DNA from: a virus
Taxonomy: Duplodnaviria; Caudoviricetes
Length of the DNA stretch: 62,438 bases
Strand: one strand, 5' to 3'
IMG/VR virus record: IMGVR_UViG_3300027881_000013
Span: 1-62,438 of that record
Position 1 is the first letter of the stretch. Each line of letters opens with the position of its first letter. Positions 21,091 to 53,847 of this stretch are shown here, piece after piece. The notes beneath the pieces were generated by a model. That model did no database searches. It was not told the DNA's origin and saw only the letters and a program-made list of their open reading frames with translations. A program made the translations under genes and the position numbers.

Positions 21091-21165
21091 TGGTGCCCCT
21101 GAGGAGGATCGAACTCCTGTTCCCGGATCGAAAATCCGGTATCCTAACCACTAGATGACAGGGGC
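21091..21165 (-). tRNA. tRNA-Glu (TTC)
   Basis: GCCCCTG/CAGGGGC acceptor, CCGGA-TTTTCGA-TCCGG anticodon arm, TTCGA T-loop, encoded CCA. Confidence 0.95.
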
Positions 21166-21167
21166 TA

Positions 21168-21254
21168 TGGTGCCGGGAGCGGGAGTCGAACCCGCACACC
21201 CAAATAGATAAGGGATTTTAAGTCCCTTGCGTCTACCAATTCCGCCATCCCGGC
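21168..21254 (-). tRNA. tRNA-Leu (TAA)
   Basis: GCCGGGA acceptor, AGGGA-CTTAAAA-TCCCT anticodon arm, long variable arm, CCA. Confidence 0.95.
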
Positions 21255-21261
21255 TGGTCTA

Positions 21262-21639
21262 TCATTGGTCACCACCACCCATAGCTACGTCAGATAGATT
21301 TTCATCTGTAAGGTATTCATGGTTTTCAGCATTCATAATTCTTCGTGCTCTATCTATAGGCATATCATGCGTGACTCGTTGCCACAATACCGTGTTAATT
21401 AATGGGTATGCGTCTTTATCTAATCCTAATCTAGACATTATATCAATAAATGACTCTTCACATATTTTATTTACTTTAGCGAGTCCCTCGCACCAGGTAT
21501 CTTGTTCAGACGATAGCTTCATTAAGAGCTTATTCTGTTCTGCATATAACTCAATTAATTGAGCCTGATAGGAGAAGGTACTATATGCAAAAAATGAAGT
21601 TAAAAGTACAAATACTGCTAGCCATGCTTTTAAGGTCAT
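21262..21639 (-). CDS. Signal/TM-anchored hypothetical protein
   Basis: Hydrophobic N-terminus. Confidence 0.65.
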   Translation of the reverse strand: MTLKAWLAVFVLLTSFFAYSTFSYQAQLIELYAEQNKLLMKLSSEQDTWCEGLAKVNKICEESFIDIMSRLGLDKDAYPLINTVLWQRVTHDMPIDRARRIMNAENHEYLTDENLSDVAMGGGDQ

Positions 21640-21640
21640 A

Positions 21641-21958
21641 CTACTTATCGCTTTTTTTGAGCAACTTCTCTAAAAATACAGGGGCAGGCGATTTTATATC
21701 TTTTAGCCCCTTACCTAATCTCTTATTTCCTTTGTACATAAAGTCATCAGAGTTCTTACTAATGAATTCATACTTAAATTCATAATTCTCGTTCTCATTT
21801 TTGGGATTCTCATTAAATAATCGAGCCTTTGTCCAGGATGGTATCATTTCTGCCATGCCAGCAGTCAGAAATTCGCACACTACACCACATTCATGACACC
21901 AGTATATTTTATAGCCCTCTGATGGCTCTTTGAGTAGTACTAACTTATGGACGTGCAT
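21641..21958 (-). CDS. Hypothetical protein
   Basis: ORF with CxxC. Confidence 0.55.
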   Translation of the reverse strand: MHVHKLVLLKEPSEGYKIYWCHECGVVCEFLTAGMAEMIPSWTKARLFNENPKNENENYEFKYEFISKNSDDFMYKGNKRLGKGLKDIKSPAPVFLEKLLKKSDK

Positions 21959-22012
21959 ATTTATTTATAAGAATAATTGACTGTCTGTTTATTATGTGTT
22001 AAGGTGTTTAAT

Positions 22013-22378
22013 ATGGCAAATAGATCACCACTAACAGACGGGCAACAAGCAATTTTTAAATTTGTTGTTGCATTCATTAGAGAAAATGGCTTTGGGCCAA
22101 CAATTAGGGAGATCCAGGGGGAATTTAATTACAGGTCATCTAATTCTGTTGTGATTCATCTTAATAATTTGAGGTCAAAAGGTTATATAACTAAATCAAG
22201 TACAAAAGATAAAATGAAAACCAGAACTATTAGATTGGTTGATGACATTATTGGTAACTATACTATTGATACCGGCTTCTTGAATAAAGCAATTAAAAAT
22301 TTAAAAGAACGTGGTTATGAGATTGAAGCTAACCTCGCGGTTGAATTCCTTAAAGAATTAAAAGTAAACATAGTTTAA
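22013..22378 (+). CDS. LexA-type winged-helix DNA-binding protein lacking the peptidase domain
   Basis: LTxxQxxIFxFxxxFIxENGFGPTIREI...SSNSVxxHLxxLxxKGYI; TTGACT-N17-TAAGGT promoter just upstream (leaderless). Confidence 0.85.
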   Translation: MANRSPLTDGQQAIFKFVVAFIRENGFGPTIREIQGEFNYRSSNSVVIHLNNLRSKGYITKSSTKDKMKTRTIRLVDDIIGNYTIDTGFLNKAIKNLKERGYEIEANLAVEFLKELKVNIV

Positions 22379-22455
22379 TGGTGGACCCTGTAGGAGTCGA
22401 ACCTACGACCAATCGGTTATGAGCCGATAGCTCTAACCAACTGAGCTAAGGGTCC
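22379..22455 (-). tRNA. tRNA-Ile2 (CAT, lysidine-type) rather than Met
   Basis: GGACCCTTAGCTCAGTTGGTTAGAGC...CTCATAA...GGTTCGACTCC...GGGTCCACCA resembles bacterial Ile2 tRNAs. Confidence 0.9.
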
Positions 22456-46898: not shown

Positions 46899-47027
46899 AT
46901 GTTTCATAAAACAGGTAAAACCACTACCTTAGGGGTATTGAAAAAAGACAAAGACAAAGATAAAACTGATAAAAAGCCAAAAGATAAAACTGATAATAAA
47001 GATAAGAAAGATCAAGTAAAACAATGA
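46899..47027 (+). CDS. 42-aa Lys/Asp-rich peptide (MFHKTGKTTTLGVLKKDKDK...)
   Basis: GAGG RBS; ATGA overlap with protease. Confidence 0.6.
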   Translation: MFHKTGKTTTLGVLKKDKDKDKTDKKPKDKTDNKDKKDQVKQ

Positions 47028-49744
47028 CGTTTATTAAGACTGCAGCAGTCCAGACTATTGCTGTCGCTGTGTTTGAGGACAACAGACTAACAAAGTCTGC
47101 TGCCTATGACGAAGATAGCACTAGTGAGTTTCTTAATGAACGTAAACCCATTGATATTAAAGCCGCGTTAGAGATCGTAGCTTCTGAATACGATATCTCA
47201 AGTAATCCCTCAGATTATATTTTTGAAGCAATTAGAGGGAACACAGCTAATGTACCTAATGAAAATAAAGACGCTTTCCATAAACATGAATTATTAAGAT
47301 TTGATGGTCGTTTAGGTAAGCAAGTCTATCGTACCTACGAAAACAAGCCCCACCACATTAACCATAGAGCGGAAAACCCCAAGAATGCTAGGGGTTTTAT
47401 TGTTGATGCTCATTATAATGACTCAACTCCTGCACTCGATGAATGTTCAAATCCAAATTGTGGCAATAAAACTGCTTCTGAAGAGGAACGAGATCCTGAA
47501 ACTGGCATTCACTGCAGAAAGTGTGGTGAGGTAGTTAAAGATGAATTCGTTGAGCTTCTTGTTGCAATAGATACTAAGAAAGATCCGACATTCGCTCGAG
47601 GCGTACAGGCTGGGATCCTTAAACATGGATCTATGGGCTGTTCATGCCTACGTACGAGATGTAATGTTTGTAATAAAGTTGCCTATAGTAGAAACGAATT
47701 TTGTGATCATATTAAAAATAAAGGTAAAGCTTACGATGAATCCGAACCTGGATTCAATCCTATTGCCTTTGTAATTGAGTATGGGAAAGACAAAACTGCT
47801 AAGGTAGCTAAGAAGATCGCCAAAGCCTATGAGTGGTGTGAAGGTGTCATCTACGACGAATATAGTCGTGTACATGACCCAGCAGATACAAAAGCTGAGC
47901 AATATGAAATTCTTCAGCTAAGTGCGAAGGTTGCTCAGTTAACTAGCGAAGATCAGCTGCAAAATGAATCTGACATACTAATACTTAGTCAAAAGGTAGC
48001 CGATCTCGAGAGGCGGGTGGGGGAGAAACTAAGCAAGGTAGCTCAGGCTACGCCTGAAATACCTGCCATGCCTCCCCCACCGCCTGGCTTACCTGGTCCA
48101 GGTTCTGCTGCACCAGGTCCCGTTGCGCCAGGTTTAGAGGATCCAACGTTAGGCTTAGAGGGTCCTCCACCTGAAGAAGATAAGAGTGAGGGTGGAGTAA
48201 CCGTCATTATAAATGCTGGGCCAGAAGGTGTAGAAGTCGAATCTCCCCAGCTTGAAGAAACAGCACTTGATAATAAGTCTATTGATGACTTACTGCCGGA
48301 AGATGTGAACGCCACACCTGCTGGTGTTGGTGAGATGATGTCACCAGCTGCTATGGGGCTTGAAGAGGGTCCTAAGGCTGTTCCGCCTAAACTTGGAAAT
48401 AAAGAAACCTCTGGAGGTTCCCCGATGCTTCGTTTTGCAGAGTCATACAAGCATTTAAAGGCGGAGATTACTAGCGCTGGTAATGTTCGCGTTTTTGATG
48501 CTGACGGTACCTTATTTGTTGTTAAGCCCGATAGTGTTGATACTAGCAAGGTTGCCAGTGTTGAGCCAGAGGATCTGGCTAAGAACGTTCTTACCACAAT
48601 CGCTCAGTATGGTGTTGGTACCGCTATCAATATGACCAGGGCTATTGTTGGTCCGCGTCTTGCTCAAGTCTTACAGTATTATCATGACGATATGACCGGT
48701 GTTGATCGTGGTGAGCCCACCGCACCAGTTTCTGGTGACGGCGATACAGATGCTAAGGATAAGCCTGCATCGCCTGACGATTCAGTTACTGCTGGTGGTG
48801 CTGACTCTGATCGTAAAGATGAATATGATAATACTGTCACGCTCAAGGACGATGCACTAAGTGATCGTGACTCCGATCTTGAAGATGAGCAAAACGATCG
48901 AGATCCTAATAGTCTGTCTACTGGTGATGATGAGGATTCTGACATGAAAGAAAAGCGTAAGGACTGGAGTTTGAGTCAGAGCGCTGTTGATGATGTCAGT
49001 ACCGATATGAAGAATGCTGCTAAGGACAAGAAGGACAAGAAGGACAAGGATTGTAAGAAATGCAAGTGTGATCCTTGCAAGTGTGATAAAGAGAAGAAGG
49101 CTGAAGCTTACGATATCAAGCAGCATGCTTCTAGAATCGAAACTCTCTATAAGGGTCGATTAGCTCAGAAGGTTGCAGAGCTTGAGGATGAGAAGAAGCA
49201 GTTCGTTAGTAATATGGCTGACAGGTTCGCCAGAGCCATCAAGCTCGTAGCTAAGCGGCAAGCTCTCAATCTCGAGTATTCTCCGATGAAGACTGCGATG
49301 GGTATTGCTCTCTGTAATCCTATGCCACTTGGTGAGGGTTATGAATACGCACCCATGGATCAGAAAACTGCAGTTTCTGTTGTAGAGGCCGCATTTACTA
49401 GTCCAATTATCGAGGGTACTGATAAGCCAGCTTGGGAAGCTTTTGTTGATGGTCTTATCGAACGTGCTGGTTCGGTTATGGAGTGGAATGATGAGACCTT
49501 AATGCAGGTTGAGGCAGACTTAGGTAATATTAAGACTGCTGCGGTTCCTTTGGATGAGTCCGCTATCGCAGTAGAAACTACTGGTAATGTGCAACTTCGG
49601 CAGGCTATGGCCAATGGTAATCTTCAGTTGAATCCGACTGAAGATGCTGGGCCAAAGACTGAGGCTGCTGGTGATAAACGAACAGCCATCAGAGATGCTG
49701 TAGGTGTAACGAAGGTGGCTGGTTTAGCCAATCTTGGGAGATAG
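47024..49744 (+). CDS. Prohead protease fused to scaffold, with zinc-ribbon inserts
   Basis: NENKDAF...EL, INH, ARGFIVDA, VELL, GSMGC; acidic and coiled-coil C-terminal half; precedes capsid genes. Confidence 0.85.
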   Translation: MTFIKTAAVQTIAVAVFEDNRLTKSAAYDEDSTSEFLNERKPIDIKAALEIVASEYDISSNPSDYIFEAIRGNTANVPNENKDAFHKHELLRFDGRLGKQVYRTYENKPHHINHRAENPKNARGFIVDAHYNDSTPALDECSNPNCGNKTASEEERDPETGIHCRKCGEVVKDEFVELLVAIDTKKDPTFARGVQAGILKHGSMGCSCLRTRCNVCNKVAYSRNEFCDHIKNKGKAYDESEPGFNPIAFVIEYGKDKTAKVAKKIAKAYEWCEGVIYDEYSRVHDPADTKAEQYEILQLSAKVAQLTSEDQLQNESDILILSQKVADLERRVGEKLSKVAQATPEIPAMPPPPPGLPGPGSAAPGPVAPGLEDPTLGLEGPPPEEDKSEGGVTVIINAGPEGVEVESPQLEETALDNKSIDDLLPEDVNATPAGVGEMMSPAAMGLEEGPKAVPPKLGNKETSGGSPMLRFAESYKHLKAEITSAGNVRVFDADGTLFVVKPDSVDTSKVASVEPEDLAKNVLTTIAQYGVGTAINMTRAIVGPRLAQVLQYYHDDMTGVDRGEPTAPVSGDGDTDAKDKPASPDDSVTAGGADSDRKDEYDNTVTLKDDALSDRDSDLEDEQNDRDPNSLSTGDDEDSDMKEKRKDWSLSQSAVDDVSTDMKNAAKDKKDKKDKDCKKCKCDPCKCDKEKKAEAYDIKQHASRIETLYKGRLAQKVAELEDEKKQFVSNMADRFARAIKLVAKRQALNLEYSPMKTAMGIALCNPMPLGEGYEYAPMDQKTAVSVVEAAFTSPIIEGTDKPAWEAFVDGLIERAGSVMEWNDETLMQVEADLGNIKTAAVPLDESAIAVETTGNVQLRQAMANGNLQLNPTEDAGPKTEAAGDKRTAIRDAVGVTKVAGLANLGR

Positions 49745-50663: not shown

Positions 50664-51872
50664 ATGAGCGTAGTCAACCCTTATAAGCGCCTTGCTGCGG
50701 CTGGGGCCGAGACGCCTCCGCCTAAGGGCGTGGAAACCCCAACCATCGAGCGTCATGCTAGCAAGCAAGATGAGCAGCACTTTGATGCTGATGGTAAGTT
50801 TAACCCCACCGCATATGCTGGTGAGGTTACTCGTGACGGCGTACGTCAGGCAGTGGGTAACACCAATCTGTCGAATCGTATGTTCGATAAGACCGGCGAA
50901 GTCAACGCCTATGACGACAAGGATGCTTTGCAGCAGGTAGCGTATCTGCTTCAAAATGTCACTCGTAAGGCGTCTCCGGGCACCTTCTATCGTGAAGCTT
51001 CGAATCAGATGGATGCGGAAGATCGCCGCAAGGTTCTCGCTGCGGCGATGACCGATCCTACTGGTGAAGGTTTCGCGATTGTTGGCCAGGAGCTCTTGCT
51101 TCCGATCAAGGACATCGTGGATTACGAGGGCTGGGCTCGTAAGCTTTACCGCGTACGTCCCTTGGCTCAGGGTGAGCTTTTCCGCATCGCGAAGGACGTC
51201 CGCGCTACCGCATGGGTAGTCGGTCAGGATGGTCAGTCCATTGAGTCCAGACTCCATGGTCGGTTCATTCAGCCTTCGGAGTTCAAGGTAACCGCATTCC
51301 CCACCGTGGACATCGAGGACATCTATCAGATGAACTACGATGTTCTCGATCGCGCTCAGGACACTGCTCGGCAGGAGATTGAGCTCGAAGAGGACAAGCG
51401 TGGCCTCGCGCTTCTGGATAGAGCGGCGCAGACTGTCAATGCGGAAACCATCTTCACTACGCTGGGCATCTCGGCGTTTGAGGATGTTCGCTTCCAGGTT
51501 GAGCGTCATCGCCTCATGGTTGAGAAGTTCTTTATCAACCGTGCCGAGCTTTCTGATGTCGTGAAGACGATGAGTGCGGCTGTTGATCCGGTAACCGAGC
51601 GCGAGTTAATCCTCGCCGGTTATATCGGCAACATCCTCAATGCTCAGATCATCACTGCGGCTGGTACCGGTGTTGAGGAAGTCGTACCTGCGGGTACCTT
51701 CTACGCCGTCACCGGCAGTGAGTACCTCGGCGAGATGGGCGTACGTGTTGAGCTCTTCAGTGAGCCCTTCAACATGTTCAGCCATCGTCGCCTGGTCAAG
51801 GGATGGGCATTTGGCGAGATCATCGGCTTCGGTATTCCGAACCCGAGAGCGGCAGCCAAGGGCCGGAAGTAG
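50664..51872 (+). CDS. Major capsid protein (HK97 fold)
   Basis: Synteny; PIKDIVDYEGWARKL...LAQGEL...DIYQMNYDVLDRAQD...EED; ends EIIGFGIPNPRAAAKG; strongly biased codons. Confidence 0.9.
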   Translation: MSVVNPYKRLAAAGAETPPPKGVETPTIERHASKQDEQHFDADGKFNPTAYAGEVTRDGVRQAVGNTNLSNRMFDKTGEVNAYDDKDALQQVAYLLQNVTRKASPGTFYREASNQMDAEDRRKVLAAAMTDPTGEGFAIVGQELLLPIKDIVDYEGWARKLYRVRPLAQGELFRIAKDVRATAWVVGQDGQSIESRLHGRFIQPSEFKVTAFPTVDIEDIYQMNYDVLDRAQDTARQEIELEEDKRGLALLDRAAQTVNAETIFTTLGISAFEDVRFQVERHRLMVEKFFINRAELSDVVKTMSAAVDPVTERELILAGYIGNILNAQIITAAGTGVEEVVPAGTFYAVTGSEYLGEMGVRVELFSEPFNMFSHRRLVKGWAFGEIIGFGIPNPRAAAKGRK

Positions 51873-51893
51873 TAACTAGCCTTCTAGGCATCT

Positions 51894-51933
51894 AGCCCGG
51901 TAGATCAGTTCCACCACTGGTCTACCGGGCTTT
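51894..51933 (+). terminator. Intrinsic terminator after MCP
   Basis: AGCCCGGTAGATCAG/CTGGTCTACCGGGCT stem then TTT. Confidence 0.7.
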
Positions 51934-52075
51934 ACCTCTGTTTAACAGATTTACCTCTGTTTAACAGAGAGGTCGCAAATGCGGCAAATAAACTGTTCCT
52001 TCTAACATGGTGTTAGAACAGAACATGGTGGGTTAAATTCCCGCATCCTCGGCAAGGATGCAAATGGATTGAGGG
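51931..52075 (+). ncRNA. Multi-hairpin RNA upstream of RRXRR-domain gene
   Basis: 19-nt tandem duplication 51931-51968, then hairpins GTCGC/GCGGC, TTCTAACA/TGTTAGAA, GTGGG-TTAAATT-CCCGC, GCATCCT/AGGATGC. Confidence 0.45.
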
Positions 52076-52087
52076 ACTGCTCTGTGT

Positions 52088-53038
52088 ATGGGCAAGCCAT
52101 CTCAGGATGTGGTATTGGTAGTAGATTCCGAGAAGAGATTCTTGGAGTACATCCATCCTGGAAGGGCGCGAAGGCTGTTAAGAGAGAAGAAAGCCAAAAT
52201 TCACTCGAGGCGACCCTTTGCAATTATGCTCTTCAAGACAGTATCGGCCTCCTCAATCAGGAGAAGAAAAGTTATGCCAATTCCTAGAAACTTCACTGAA
52301 TTCTTCAAAGAAGAGCGAGACATTTACGTACAGAATCTCGCAAATGCACAAGTCTCGTGCGAATTTCCGATAGCTCCAAATCGGAATGAAGGGTTTCTGT
52401 TTTCAAATAACAGAGATCCGGTAAACCTCACACAGTTCATACCCTTTGACGCCATCAAAGCATCCATGGACTTCAGAAAGATGTTGAGTCGCCGCCCGCC
52501 GGCACTCCAACTTCTTACTGAAGAAGAGTACAATGCATATTTTGCCGGTAAGGCAAAAAATTCCAATATGATGGATACTGATGGTAAGCCGGATGTTGAT
52601 GCAGCTATTGATGCTTCTGAGGAGCGTCGTCGTCGTACCTCTGATAGAAACATGCGGGAGCCAGTTGCTGCTAGTGCCCCAGAACCCATTCATGAGGTTA
52701 TTGAGAAGGGTTCTGGTCCTGGTGGTGCTGCTCGTTTTGGTGAAAGAAATCGCGTAGCGCATAATGACGTTGTTGGTGAGGATGAGGTTATTAATCCTCG
52801 AGTGCTTCACTTCTGTAATCAGGTTAAGGCTGAGATTGAAGAATCTGAGCGTATGCCTGCTGCTGAACTGTTAGAATCGCTGCAGGACATTCCTGATCTG
52901 GGTCTTGATGATTTTGAGCATATTCGAGCTCATGCGTATTACAAGACTGTAAAGAAGTGGGCCCAAAAGCAAGCGGCAGAGTTGGTCTCTCATGAGATGG
53001 ATGATGAAGCTGAAGAGGCGTCTATCGCACAGGACTAA
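52088..53038 (+). CDS. RRXRR (IscB PLMP-type) domain fused to virion-type protein; internal start at 52274
   Basis: VLVVDSEKRFLEYIHPGRARRLLREKKAKIHSRRPFAIML; second RBS AGGAG before MPIPRNF. Confidence 0.75.
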   Translation: MGKPSQDVVLVVDSEKRFLEYIHPGRARRLLREKKAKIHSRRPFAIMLFKTVSASSIRRRKVMPIPRNFTEFFKEERDIYVQNLANAQVSCEFPIAPNRNEGFLFSNNRDPVNLTQFIPFDAIKASMDFRKMLSRRPPALQLLTEEEYNAYFAGKAKNSNMMDTDGKPDVDAAIDASEERRRRTSDRNMREPVAASAPEPIHEVIEKGSGPGGAARFGERNRVAHNDVVGEDEVINPRVLHFCNQVKAEIEESERMPAAELLESLQDIPDLGLDDFEHIRAHAYYKTVKKWAQKQAAELVSHEMDDEAEEASIAQD

Positions 53039-53042
53039 ATGA

Positions 53043-53450
53043 ATGAACGTTGAACATCTATTAGTAGCTAGGAAACTAGTATTAGCTGCAAATGGTGGTA
53101 CAGCCACTCTTGCATTAGAGGCTGGAACACCATACCGCCATTATTGTGCGTGGCTAGTTGTTGATGCTTTTGGTCTTACTACTGATACACCAGATGTAGA
53201 TGTTCAACCAAAATTCGGTGGCGAAGTCGATGGTGCTGTCGTTAACGTTACTGATAGAGTTCCAACTAAAGTTTTTCAGGTAATAGTGGAAGAGATTAGA
53301 CCTCCTACGAGGGGATACGTTAAGCATCCCAATGACGCATCCCCTCCTCTTCCTCTTAAGTCTGAACTTGAAATTACTAATAGTCATCTTACCATAGAAG
53401 TACAATTAACTGTATATATGATGGCAACAGCTACTATAGGTGGTGCATAA
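53043..53450 (+). CDS. Beta-rich virion protein, tandem paralogue A
   Basis: Shares MNVEHLLVAR, GTPYRHY, EEIRPPT, LKSEL with next gene. Confidence 0.75.
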   Translation: MNVEHLLVARKLVLAANGGTATLALEAGTPYRHYCAWLVVDAFGLTTDTPDVDVQPKFGGEVDGAVVNVTDRVPTKVFQVIVEEIRPPTRGYVKHPNDASPPLPLKSELEITNSHLTIEVQLTVYMMATATIGGA

Positions 53451-53451
53451 T

Positions 53452-53847
53452 ATGAACGTTGAACATCTATTAGTAGCTAGAAGAGTAGTTTTAGAGGCAA
53501 CTGGTGGCGCAGACATTGTGACTGTAGCAGTAGAATCTGGTACTCCATATAGACACTACATGGCGTGGGTAAAGGTTTATGCTACTACTATCAATGTTAG
53601 TGTCCAACCCCTATTTGGTGGTCAAAATGATGGCGCTGCGGTAGTAGTTAATACTGCACCACCAAATAAGGTTATCCAGGTACCAATTGAAGAAATCAGA
53701 CCTCCTACCAATAATATTCAAAAACATCCAGATGATATGTCACCACCTATAGTTCTTAAGAGTGAACTTCAAATAACTAATAGTGCGGCAGTTCCTGCAG
53801 TTGTAGATGTTTGGATGATTGCAGCTGCCACACCAGGAGGCGCATAA
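53452..53847 (+). CDS. Beta-rich virion protein, tandem paralogue B
   Basis: First 29 nt identical to paralogue A. Confidence 0.75.
   Translation: MNVEHLLVARRVVLEATGGADIVTVAVESGTPYRHYMAWVKVYATTINVSVQPLFGGQNDGAAVVVNTAPPNKVIQVPIEEIRPPTNNIQKHPDDMSPPIVLKSELQITNSAAVPAVVDVWMIAAATPGGA

What the first reader, a model, noticed from the sequence alone, without database searches (positions are those of the whole stretch)
52088..53038. IscB-type PLMP/RRXRR domain fused to a virion-type protein immediately after the capsid gene
Seen: the first ~50 aa (VLVVD-x4-L-x3-HPGRARRLLREKKA-x5-PFAIML) follow the RRXRR/PLMP pattern, then an internal AGGAG + ATG (52274) begins a domain resembling other virion proteins in this window; no RuvC or HNH motifs follow. 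Known: PLMP is the N-terminal omega-RNA-contacting domain of IscB/IsrB, whose ncRNA is encoded directly upstream. Inference: a domesticated OMEGA-derived RNA-binding module, made as long and short isoforms, that may autoregulate translation or tether an RNA to the virion.
Basis: partly seen in the sequence, partly recalled or inferred. Interest (0 to 1): 0.85.

Follow-up and report, generated by a model that had tools for sequence, protein, structure and literature searches.

The report
Nuclease-free PLMP domain with leader RNA
A gene next to the capsid gene of an uncultivated large phage carries the small RNA-gripping domain of the CRISPR-ancestor enzymes IscB/IsrB but no nuclease. It appears to be made in a long and a short form, and it sits behind a previously undescribed folded RNA, so an RNA-protein pair may have been reused for a new job.

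Summary
ORF 52088-53038 starts with a true PLMP domain. Pfam RRXRR scores 35.6 bits and covers profile positions 1-49 of 174. The predicted fold superposes on solved IscB/IsrB PLMP domains (Z 8.6-7.1). No RuvC or HNH follows.

The fusion is conserved: 54 of 68 distinct relatives are fused, 3 carry PLMP as a separate upstream ORF, and 11 lack it. The gene nearly always follows the major capsid gene.

All 54 fused loci keep an in-frame ATG at the domain junction behind a strong Shine-Dalgarno. PLMP-less relatives start at that Met. The PLMP codons are under purifying selection (dN/dS 0.02-0.24). A rare long and an abundant short isoform are therefore well supported by comparison.

New here: the ~195 nt upstream (51894-52087) form a multi-hairpin, pseudoknotted leader RNA. 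Its covariation is strong (54 pairs, 95% paired, 41 with compensatory changes) and no Rfam family matches it. A shorter related element occurs in a second clade, and no PLMP-less locus has either.

RNA binding by PLMP, autoregulation and virion association are inferred, not shown. One PLMP-bearing clade has no detectable leader. The C-terminal domain has no known function and resembles no other protein in the window.

The parts
50664..51872 (+). Major capsid protein gene, the upstream neighbour
   Evidence: PHROG 2522 'major head protein', E 1.3e-56. A homologue lies directly upstream of the PLMP gene in 34 of 36 viral loci.
51894..51931 (+). Leader hairpin H1. Its loop holds the invariant CCACC (51911-51915), one arm of the proposed pseudoknot.
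   Evidence: 15 pairs, 14 with compensatory changes. Single-sequence fold. The terminator scan does not call it a terminator.
51931..51973 (+). Conserved UUUACC followed by hairpin H2 and GAGGU. In this window a 19-nt unit is tandemly duplicated (51931-51949 and 51950-51968).
   Evidence: H2 has 6 pairs, 5 with compensatory changes. The insertion is seen only in the window row of alignments A3 and A10.
51972..51985 (+). Small hairpin H3
   Evidence: 5 pairs, all with compensatory changes, 81% of cells paired.
51994..52025 (+). Hairpin H4, preceded by the conserved AUAAACUGU
   Evidence: 9 pairs, 8 with compensatory changes, 98.6% paired.
52027..52042 (+). Invariant GGUGGG...CCCG element. GGUGG (52027-52031) is complementary to the H1 loop (pseudoknot), or GGG/CCC form a small hairpin Y. 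It contains the SD-like AGGUG.
   Evidence: The pseudoknot is paired in all 14 distinct sequences that have letters there. One sequence (L039 = L062) has CAACC with GGUUG, a compensatory double change.
52043..52061 (+). Terminal hairpin H5 (Z), followed by AAA and a GAGGG 13 nt before the long-form ATG
   Evidence: 7 pairs, 6 with compensatory changes, 99% paired. Also recovered on the MAFFT alignment of 20 sequences from two clades.
52088..53038 (+). Long isoform ORF, 316 aa (PLMP + linker + C-terminal domains)
   Evidence: The frame is open and PLMP is in frame in 54 of 68 distinct relatives.
52112..52258 (+). PLMP domain (residues 9-57)
   Evidence: Pfam PF14239 (and on the DNA). Fold Z 8.6-7.1 to IscB/IsrB PLMP. 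dN/dS 0.035 against L001.
52259..52276 (+). Internal Shine-Dalgarno AGGAG (52259-52263) and ATG 52274, the start of the short isoform
   Evidence: An ATG is present in all 54 distinct fused loci. Median SD-antiSD energy is -7.4 kcal/mol against a background of -2.4. PLMP-less relatives start at this Met.
52274..53038 (+). Short isoform, 254 aa: mixed alpha/beta domain (about residues 69-230) plus a C-terminal helical part (230-315) and an acidic tail. Function unknown.
   Evidence: AlphaFold2 models. No PDB fold at Z 5 or more for residues 64-232. Foldseek matches uncharacterized proteins of the large phages PaBG, Motura and BcepSaruman.

Best explanation
The gene makes two proteins from one reading frame.

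The ancestral product is a 254-aa protein of unknown function. All relatives encode it, and it starts at the strong SD + ATG at 52274.

A weaker start at 52088 adds a 62-residue N-terminal extension. This extension is a PLMP domain homologous to that of the RNA-guided nucleases IscB/IsrB, with no nuclease domain behind it.

Directly upstream, the mRNA leader (51894-52087) folds into a conserved, pseudoknotted set of hairpins. These end in terminal hairpins and an SD-like AGGUG just before the long-form start.

I propose that PLMP does here what it does in IsrB/IscB: it clamps the 3'-terminal hairpins and the SD-proximal strand of the RNA encoded right upstream of its own start codon. Because that RNA is the leader of its own mRNA, binding would have two effects:
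1. It would damp further initiation at the upstream start. This feedback would keep the long form rare relative to the short form.
2. It would leave a ribonucleoprotein in which the leader RNA is coupled to the C-terminal domain that the long form shares with the short form.

Shown: domain homology, conserved fusion, conserved dual starts, purifying selection on PLMP, and RNA structure by covariation.

Inferred: PLMP-leader binding, feedback, and any role of the RNP.
For: PLMP identity:
- Pfam hit, 35.6 bits.
- The PDB profile search finds IscB/IsrB at E below 1e-3.
- Fold Z 8.6-7.1. The nine best Foldseek rows are all IscB/IsrB, followed by IF3 N-domains among the next rows.

Conservation:
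- Of 113 loci, 86 have PLMP fused in frame, 3 have it as a separate upstream ORF, 17 lack it or are odd, and 7 are cut by a contig end.
- After removing duplicates and partial sequences: 54 fused, 3 split and 11 none, of 68.

PLMP is translated:
- dN/dS is 0.02-0.24 in the 9 informative pairs. For example, window against L001 shows 2.5 non-synonymous and 13.5 synonymous differences in 42 codons.

Dual starts:
- The internal ATG is present in 54 of 54 loci.
- Its SD is stronger than that of the best long-start candidate in 41 of 54.
- The long start is ATG in only 35 of 54; elsewhere it is GTG or TTG.
- Gene callers usually pick the short form. For example, P0001 is called at 252 aa, yet a locus with the same 90% identity (L001) encodes residues 1-315 in frame.

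Leader RNA:
- RNAalifold on a plain MAFFT alignment of 8 sequences gives 46 pairs, 33 with compensatory changes.
- Model R1 finds 7 further untrained loci at full length, at 72-152 bits.
- On 16 distinct sequences there are 54 pairs, 95.3% paired. Shuffled controls give 75.5% and slid controls about 41%. Compensatory changes occur in 41 pairs, and 0 of 500 shuffles reach the observed values.
- The pseudoknot has one compensatory event.
- The window RNA folds at -90.5 kcal/mol, z = -6.7.
- A second clade has a shorter element: 16 pairs, 90.6% paired, 13 with compensatory changes.

Coupling of RNA and PLMP gene:
- In L001 and L002 an extra 192-aa ORF lies between the capsid gene and the RNA. The RNA therefore stays with the PLMP gene.
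- No PLMP-less locus is hit by models R2 or R3. Their leaders are a hairpin plus a plain SD.

Precedent (passages read in PMC9581776 and PMC9640706):
- PLMP binds the tandem 3' hairpins of the omega RNA.
- It contacts the SD just upstream of the isrB ORF.
- The authors suggest this may regulate expression.
- A hairpin loop pairs with the single strand next to the terminal hairpin. The H1-loop:GGUGG pairing here has the same topology.
Against: - No binding or expression data exist. No RNA-seq run holds the sequence.
- The leader matches no Rfam family, HEARO included, so homology to omega RNA is unproven.
- Clade C (L052, L055, L061, L064, L082 and the split forms L067, L076, L079) keeps PLMP but shows no structured leader. 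It has instead a short leader with a good SD and, by my reading, a promoter-like TTGCYA-17/18-ATTATT. The scan called such a site in 1 of 2 loci tried, no more often than in shuffles.
- Many PLMP-bearing loci are not hit by R2 or R3: L008, L010, L011, L022, L026, L057, L060, L070, L078, L107, L115, L118. The models therefore see only the clades they were trained on, and the absence of hits in PLMP-less loci is weak evidence.
- PLMP exists as a free-standing ORF of 63-71 aa. Fusion to the C-domain is therefore not obligatory.
- PLMP was lost at least three times. L048 keeps the RNA although its PLMP is broken.
- The eponymous P-L-M-P prolines are replaced by F-L-E-Y in the window.
- In IscB, PLMP also packs against RuvC and TI, which are absent here.
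- A consensus hairpin around the long-form start has only 3 pairs.
Confidence: 0.45

Rival explanations
1. Leader RNA and PLMP are independent. The RNA would be a cis element of the late transcript, for example an attenuator, processing site or stability element between the very highly expressed capsid gene and the downstream genes, or a translational operator for another factor. PLMP would bind something else: another phage or host RNA (perhaps the ribosome or initiator tRNA, given its likeness to the IF3 N-domain) or a protein partner.
For: - H1 begins 5-25 nt after the stop of whichever gene lies upstream.
- Clade C and the free-standing PLMP ORFs keep PLMP without a detectable structured leader.
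- L048 keeps the RNA without an intact PLMP.
- Foldseek lists IF3 N-domains among the rows just below IscB/IsrB, and the IsrB paper notes the same likeness.
- In L009 a tRNA-Met gene lies between the capsid gene and the PLMP gene.
Against: - The RNA stays with the PLMP gene when another ORF is inserted after the capsid gene.
- PLMP-less relatives have plain leaders.
- H1 does not meet the terminator pattern, and its loop is invariant and complementary to an invariant downstream strand.
- The only documented PLMP ligand is the RNA encoded directly upstream of its own gene.
Confidence: 0.3
2. The PLMP segment is a leftover of an old IscB/IsrB insertion that fused in frame to the leader of the downstream gene. 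Only the short protein matters, and the extension is tolerated rather than used.
For: - The internal SD + ATG looks like the original start, and PLMP-less relatives use it.
- There were at least 3 independent losses and one visibly decaying copy, L048.
- Long-form starts are weak or non-ATG.
- Gene callers choose the short form.
Against: - dN/dS is 0.02-0.24 on the PLMP codons, with many synonymous changes.
- The frame is kept in 54 of 68 distinct relatives, down to about 30% identity of the C-domain.
- PLMP is retained even where it is split off as its own ORF, and it is duplicated in P0129.
Confidence: 0.07
3. The RNA is a working guide-type omega RNA, or another trans-acting small RNA, that serves a nuclease encoded elsewhere in the phage genome. 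The PLMP fusion would be an accessory that loads or stabilises it.
For: - Only about 38% of the genome is in the record, so a nuclease could lie outside it.
- The RNA has the size and pseudoknotted multi-hairpin build of omega RNA scaffolds.
Against: - PF14239 has a single hit in the 62 kb record.
- There is no HEARO or other Rfam hit.
- The RNA begins with a conserved hairpin directly after the upstream stop codon and shows no variable guide-like 5' segment.
Confidence: 0.05

Closest known systems
PLMP domain of IscB/IsrB (OMEGA RNA-guided nucleases) with the 3' hairpins of their omega RNA
   Same: - Homologous domain by HMM and fold.
- It sits at the N-terminus.
- A structured, pseudoknotted RNA is encoded directly upstream of the ORF and ends in hairpins next to the SD.
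   Different: - There is no RuvC, bridge helix, HNH, WED or TI domain. PLMP is fused instead to an unrelated 250-aa phage domain that has its own start.
- The RNA is not recognisably an omega RNA (no HEARO hit, no guide segment).
- The setting is a phage head-gene block, not an IS200/IS605 element.
- The P-L-M-P prolines are not kept.
TldR, the nuclease-dead TnpB derivatives reused as RNA-guided repressors
   Same: An OMEGA-family component kept after loss of nuclease activity and put to a new use.
   Different: TldR keeps the whole (inactive) effector and its guide RNA. Here only the roughly 55-aa PLMP domain survives, and no guide is evident.
[quoted passage not shown]
   Same: The small beta-sheet-plus-helix fold is similar. 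Foldseek lists 6rw4_8, 6neq_z, 6o6d and 1tif after the IscB/IsrB chains, and the IsrB paper notes the same likeness.
   Different: The matches are weak (E 0.3-2), there is no sequence match, and no IF3 C-domain is present.
In-frame nested phage genes with an internal start, such as lambda C/Nu3 (recalled)
   Same: One frame has two starts and gives long and short products that share a C-terminus, within a head-gene block.
   Different: Here the added N-terminal part is an RNA-binding-type domain rather than a protease. No protein data exist.
Rfam HEARO (RF02033), the omega RNA of many IscB genes
   Same: It lies directly upstream of a PLMP-encoding ORF and has several hairpins.
   Different: It gives no match in the window even at E up to 10. 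The control phage IscB locus L117 scores 120 bits.

Membership tests
PLMP domain / Pfam RRXRR (PF14239) N-terminal part | HMM match above the curated cut-off | tested here: met
   35.6 bits against a cut-off of 25, residues 9-57 = profile 1-49; 36 bits on the DNA.
PLMP domain / Pfam RRXRR (PF14239) N-terminal part | Small beta-sheet plus one helix that superposes on solved PLMP domains | tested here: met
   Model strands 9-12, 18-22, 36-40, 45-48 and helix 24-32. Z 8.6 / rmsd 1.8 A / 52 aa to 9k30_A. Z 7.6 to DtIsrB 8dmb_P, model 7-59 against chain 6-59.
PLMP domain / Pfam RRXRR (PF14239) N-terminal part | The eponymous P-L-M-P motif | tested here: not met
   The window has F-L-E-Y at the aligned place and most relatives have (F/I)-L-(E/S)-Y. 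Only L and, in some relatives (L009, L053, L058), the second P are kept.
IscB / IsrB effector (OMEGA) | RuvC-like nuclease domain split by a bridge helix | tested here: not met
   The Pfam match stops at profile position 49 of 174. True IscBs match 1-174. Beyond residue 62 the fold searches align only generic helical chains (residues 199-316), and no RNase H-like chain is among the listed rows.
IscB / IsrB effector (OMEGA) | HNH domain (IscB) | tested here: not met
   No HNH family at E up to 1. Controls P0189 and P0212 hit HNH.
IscB / IsrB effector (OMEGA) | Cognate omega RNA encoded upstream | tested here: inconclusive
   A covarying structured RNA is there, but it matches no Rfam model. Collections of omega RNA models in paper supplements could not be seen.
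IscB / IsrB effector (OMEGA) | IS200/IS605-type transposon context (TnpA, element ends) | not tested
   The neighbours are head genes. No search for element ends was made.
HEARO RNA (RF02033) | Covariance-model match | tested here: not met
   No hit at E up to 10 in 51500-53500, nor at the gathering score in the window and 12 related loci. The positive control scores 120 bits in L117.
Dual-start (nested in-frame) phage gene | Conserved internal SD + start codon, with relatives that begin there | tested here: met
   54 of 54 fused loci keep the ATG. Median SD energy is -7.4 against a background of -2.4 kcal/mol. PLMP-less loci start at the same Met.
Dual-start (nested in-frame) phage gene | Both products detected | not testable with these tools
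   No RNA run holds the sequence and there are no proteomic data.
Virion / head-associated protein | Similarity to a known structural protein, or detection in particles | tested here: inconclusive
   Only the position after the capsid gene points that way. There is no PHROG or Pfam hit for residues 63-316, no PDB fold, and the BFVD relatives are uncharacterized.

The most novel reading that the evidence does not exclude
A nuclease-free remnant of an OMEGA system has become a structural or assembly ribonucleoprotein of large phages. A trimmed omega-RNA-like scaffold (the leader) would be gripped by the PLMP of the rare long isoform. Through the C-terminal domain shared with the abundant short isoform, the RNA would be brought into a head-associated assembly, giving an RNA component of capsid morphogenesis comparable in spirit to the phi29 packaging RNA.
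Probability: 0.12. Interest if true: 0.92.

Novelty: new variant of a known kind. Interest (0 to 1): 0.78.

Why it matters
PLMP is so far known only as an integral part of the IscB/IsrB nucleases, where it holds the 3' end of the omega RNA.

Here it appears without any nuclease, under purifying selection, in dozens of diverged uncultivated large phages. It occurs fused, free-standing or duplicated, and is usually preceded by a covarying structured RNA that no RNA library contains.

- This would make PLMP an autonomous, portable RNA-binding module. It gives a natural test case for what PLMP recognises.
- It adds an IscB-side counterpart to the known reuse of TnpB.
- It defines a new phage RNA motif of about 190 nt with a pseudoknot.
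- It warns that automatic annotation systematically misses the long isoform, because gene callers start at the internal ATG.
- If the RNA-protein pair regulates isoform ratio or enters the capsid assembly line, it would be a new kind of control in phage head gene blocks.

Tried and rejected
- **Known RNA families.** Rfam at the gathering score on the window gave only three tRNAs at 21-22 kb. At E up to 10 on 51500-53500 there were only chance-level rows. On 12 related loci there was nothing. A known ribozyme, riboswitch or HEARO is therefore not supported.
- **H1 as a plain intrinsic terminator.** The pattern scan does not call it. Attenuation is not excluded.
- **Hairpin around the long-form start.** It is predicted in the window alone, but the 15-sequence consensus keeps only 3 pairs. 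I left it out of the claims.
- **Function of the C-domain.**
  - Pfam and PHROGs gave nothing beyond PLMP.
  - The ESM Atlas gave only unnamed viral clusters at scores of 0.80 or less.
  - Foldseek against the PDB returned only PLMP-driven rows.
  - VIA-wide on the whole model gave only generic helical matches for residues 230-315.
  - VIA-wide on residues 64-232 alone gave a best Z of 4.9.
  - hhalign against PaBG gp078 found nothing.
  - I could not map the BFVD hits S5VV81 and A0A514CSK6 to gene numbers. The genes after the capsid gene in PaBG and Motura have other lengths.
- **Homo-oligomer of the C-domain.** Complex prediction with 2 copies returned 'no answer'. This is not evidence either way.
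- **Expression.** No RNA holder is listed among 5 runs.
- **Fetching IscB loci with the nearest PLMP from genome contigs.** This returned only two further members of the phage family (L114, L115). The only omega RNA comparison was therefore the Ralstonia phage Adzire locus, whose terminal hairpins showed no evident similarity by eye.
- **Models R2 and R3.** They recognise only their own clades. A family-wide RNA model was not achieved.
- **Clade C promoter reading.** It rests on my own pattern comparison. The scan flagged 1 of 2 loci, no more than in shuffles.
- **dN/dS (18 pairs).** Seven had saturated dS in the PLMP segment. One (L046-L054) was misregistered by one residue and was dropped. 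One (L016-L019) had only a single difference.
- **Tree.** It is the quick search because the careful one did not finish. It is midpoint-rooted, so gain against loss of PLMP is not decided. Sixteen partial or contig-cut loci were left out before the tree: L047, L050, L051, L062, L066, L068, L082, L086, L096, L103, L106, L109, L110, L111, L112, L113.
- **Literature.** Searches for 'PLMP domain'+IscB, PLMP+phage+IscB, RRXRR and TbaIscB listed no paper that describes a nuclease-free PLMP fusion or this RNA, judging by listings and abstracts only.
Full report
**What is there.**
ORF 52088..53038 (+, 316 aa) follows the major capsid gene 50664..51872 (PHROG 2522, E 1.3e-56) after a 215-nt gap. Its residues 9-57 match Pfam RRXRR PF14239 at 35.6 bits (cut-off 25). 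The match covers only the first 49 of 174 profile positions, which is the PLMP part and not the RuvC part. No HNH or RuvC family is hit.

The AlphaFold2 model built on a 59-sequence alignment (pLDDT 84.7) gives four strands and one helix for residues 9-48. A low-confidence linker (50-68) follows, then a confident alpha/beta domain and a C-terminal helical part. An all-against-all structural search puts five IscB/IsrB chains first, all aligned to model residues 6-62:
- 9k30_A: Z 8.6, rmsd 1.8 A over 52 residues, 35% identity
- 9k2z_A: Z 8.4
- DtIsrB 8dmb_P: Z 7.6
- 9nvu_P: Z 7.1
- 9liq_A: Z 7.1

Foldseek lists nine IscB/IsrB entries first, with IF3 N-domains among the rows that follow. A profile of 24 phage PLMP segments finds IscB/IsrB chains at E below 1e-3 among all PDB sequences (TbaIscB 2e-15). 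The eponymous P-L-M-P is F-L-E-Y here. The window record holds a single PF14239 match and is estimated to be 38% of a genome.

**The fusion is conserved, not an accident of this genome.**
A protein search returned 122 relatives. The 285-370-aa ones carry PF14239 and the 180-280-aa ones do not. The DNA shows that most 'short' proteins are gene-caller choices. In 34 of 36 viral loci the PLMP codons lie in frame upstream; L001, for example, is 90% identical over residues 1-315.

I searched all six frames of 113 loci (112 fetched plus the window) with a PLMP HMM:

| PLMP state | loci |
|---|---|
| fused in frame | 86 |
| separate ORF just upstream (L067, L076, L079) | 3 |
| none, or odd | 17 |
| cut by a contig end | 7 |

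In L076 the stop of the separate PLMP ORF overlaps the ATG of the C-domain gene.

After I dropped 16 partial loci and merged identical sequences, 68 distinct C-domains remained: 54 fused, 3 split and 11 without PLMP. On a quick maximum-likelihood tree the PLMP-less state needs at least three changes:
- L048 sits inside the window's own clade and shows a visibly decayed remnant.
- L012 sits inside the clade that also holds the split forms.
- A group of nine is sister to the fused L010/L011.

The root is unknown, so I do not decide between one gain with several losses and other histories. A capsid-gene homologue lies directly upstream in 34 of 36 viral loci.

A profile search of 1.84 billion representatives found 2447 PLMP-bearing proteins at E up to 1e-3 and 198 at E up to 1e-10. 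From the sequences and Pfam hits of a sample of them, these include:
- free-standing 63-71-aa PLMP proteins (P0122, P0123, P0125; P0127 is the L067 ORF)
- a member with two PLMP domains before the C-domain (P0129)
- small proteins with tandem PLMP domains (P0133, P0134)
- ordinary IscBs

**Two starts.**
In all 54 distinct fused loci an in-frame ATG lies 3-14 codons before the first conserved block of the C-domain. PLMP-less relatives begin at that Met. It is preceded by AGGAG, GGAGG or GGGAGG even where the linker peptide differs (IRRRK in one clade, DPRE in another).

| Site | Median SD-antiSD energy (kcal/mol) |
|---|---|
| internal ATG | -7.4 |
| best long-form start candidate | -5.6 |
| random positions | -2.4 (5th percentile -7.0) |

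The internal site is the stronger one in 41 of 54 loci. The long form has an in-frame ATG in only 35 of 54 and otherwise GTG or TTG. In the window the nearest SD-like GAGGG lies 13 nt from ATG 52088.

The PLMP codons are nevertheless translated. dN/dS over 42 codons is 0.024-0.235 in the nine informative pairs; window against L001 shows 2.5 non-synonymous and 13.5 synonymous differences. Seven pairs were saturated, one was misregistered and dropped, and one had a single difference. The comparative evidence thus supports a rare long and an abundant short isoform. No protein or RNA data exist.

**A structured leader RNA.**
I aligned the sequence between the upstream stop and the long-form ATG in the window and seven relatives that share 63-90% protein identity. 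This revealed a series of hairpins with compensatory changes: 46 pairs, 33 with double changes, on a plain MAFFT alignment.

A covariance model of it (R1) matched only this place in the 62-kb window. It also found seven further untrained loci at full length (72-152 bits) and the 5'-cut L048.

On the 16 distinct sequences:
- 54 pairs are 95.3% paired. Shuffled controls give 75.5% and slid controls 38-47%.
- 41 pairs have changes on both sides.
- The covariation score is 0.612 against 0.248, reached by 0 of 500 shuffles.
- The alignment was fitted to the model, which favours the structure. The MAFFT result and the slid controls argue that the signal is real.

In the window the elements are:
- H1, 51894-51931
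- UUUACC plus H2, with a window-specific 19-nt tandem duplication at 51931-51968
- H3, 51972-51985
- AUAAACUGU plus H4, 51994-52025
- the invariant GGUGGG...CCCG, 52027-52042
- the terminal hairpin H5, 52043-52061
- about 26 nt up to the ATG

The RNA folds at -90.5 kcal/mol, z = -6.7. The invariant H1 loop CCACC is complementary to the invariant GGUGG. One lineage (L039 = L062) has CAACC with GGUUG, a compensatory double change that breaks the alternative small hairpin but keeps this pseudoknot. L054 lacks the CCACC loop.

More distant PLMP-bearing clades carry related but shorter leaders:
- Five intermediates keep 'hairpin - AGGU - GGGAUCAAxCCC - hairpin - AAAC - start'.
- A large clade of about 35% identity has 'GC hairpin - ACCCCGC..GCGGGAGG hairpin - GGGU..ACCC hairpin - UGGCACACC - start'. 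It shows 16 pairs, 90.6% paired, 13 with double changes, and 0 of 500 shuffles for four of the five measures.

In L001 and L002 a 192-aa ORF is inserted after the capsid gene, and the RNA begins 5 nt after that ORF's stop. The RNA therefore travels with the PLMP gene.

PLMP-less loci have short leaders: one hairpin, an A/T-rich spacer and a canonical SD. Neither model hits them.

Counter-evidence: the models also miss many PLMP-bearing loci. The clade that contains the split forms has no evident structured leader at all; it has instead what I read as a promoter-like TTGCYA-17/18-ATTATT with a good SD. The scan supports this only weakly.

**Relation to omega RNA.**
I read passages of two structure papers.
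[quoted passage not shown] The authors suggest that this may regulate expression. A hairpin loop pairs with the single strand next to SL7 (PMC9581776).
- In IscB, PLMP recognises the terminal hairpins, mostly without sequence specificity (PMC9640706).

The phage leader has the same position and the same topology: a loop-to-strand pseudoknot next to terminal hairpins, with an SD-like AGGUG. It does not, however, match Rfam HEARO or any other family. As a control, the IscB-like gene of Ralstonia phage Adzire has a PLMP 54% identical to that of L016, and HEARO lies about 80 nt upstream of it at 120 bits. Homology of the leader to omega RNA therefore remains a hypothesis.

**The C-terminal domain.**
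Its function is unknown.
- No Pfam or PHROG family matches.
- No PDB fold reaches Z 5 for residues 64-232.
- Residues 230-315 give only generic helical matches.
- Foldseek relatives are uncharacterized 200-245-aa proteins of large phages: PaBG, Motura, BcepSaruman. The capsid proteins of these phages are also the window's distant relatives, at about 27% identity; Virus Rctr197k is at 73%.
- It resembles no other ORF of the window.

'Virion-type' therefore rests on position alone.

**How it most likely works.**
I favour (0.45) the following: the long isoform's PLMP binds the terminal hairpins and SD-proximal strand of its own leader. This would limit initiation at the upstream start and produce an RNP that shares its C-domain with the abundant short form.

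- The main rival (0.30) treats RNA and PLMP as independent. It is supported by the leader-less clade, the free-standing PLMP ORFs and L048.
- A neutral-remnant reading (0.07) is contradicted by purifying selection.
- A guide-type RNA for a nuclease encoded elsewhere (0.05) cannot be excluded from a 38% genome.

**Novelty.**
Four literature searches (listings and abstracts only, plus the passages cited above) showed no description of a nuclease-free PLMP fusion or of this RNA. Supplements were closed. I file this as a new variant of a known kind: a known domain and a known type of RNA-protein arrangement, in a new architecture and setting, with a new RNA motif.

Noticed in passing
window 53043-53450 and 53440-53847: Two adjacent 135-aa ORFs directly downstream are paralogues (57% identity, E 2.7e-48). 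Neither has a Pfam or PHROG match.
   Followed up: partly
window 51931-51968: A 19-nt unit (UUUACC plus half of hairpin H2) is tandemly duplicated. None of the other 15 distinct clade-A leaders has this insertion.
   Followed up: partly
window 47024-49744: A 906-aa ORF whose N-terminus matches a head maturation protease (PHROG 18299, 6.8e-25). A Cys-rich stretch and long proline- or acid-rich low-complexity regions follow, so it is probably a protease-scaffold fusion.
   Followed up: no
L009 1442-1518: In this relative a tRNA-Met (CAT) gene lies between the capsid gene and the leader of the PLMP gene. Rfam at the gathering score did not list it.
   Followed up: no
L001 3243-3824; L002 3232-3807: A 191-193-aa ORF is inserted between the capsid gene and the leader RNA in two close relatives but is absent from the window.
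   Followed up: no
proteins P0129, P0133, P0134, P0169, P0126: Other PLMP architectures turned up: two PLMP domains before the C-domain (P0129, 402 aa), small tandem-PLMP proteins (P0133, P0134), and PLMP with a different tail (P0169). A 1123-aa protein has 11 partial matches to the basic helix of the profile (P0126).
   Followed up: partly
L114, L115: Two members of the phage family lie on contigs that are binned in an Archaeoglobales MAG and a Thermotogae MAG. This may reflect mis-binning or may hint at the host.
   Followed up: no
L099-L105, upstream of the C-domain gene: In the PLMP-less clade another ORF ends just before the C-domain gene, where a capsid gene plus leader would be expected. 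I did not identify it.
   Followed up: no
window 21091-22455 (- strand): Three tRNA genes: Glu-TTC, Leu-TAA, Met-CAT.
   Followed up: no
window 50664-53038: Two DNA runs hold half or more of the sampled words, and both are labelled seawater metagenome. One of them may be the source of the window. No RNA run is listed.
   Followed up: no
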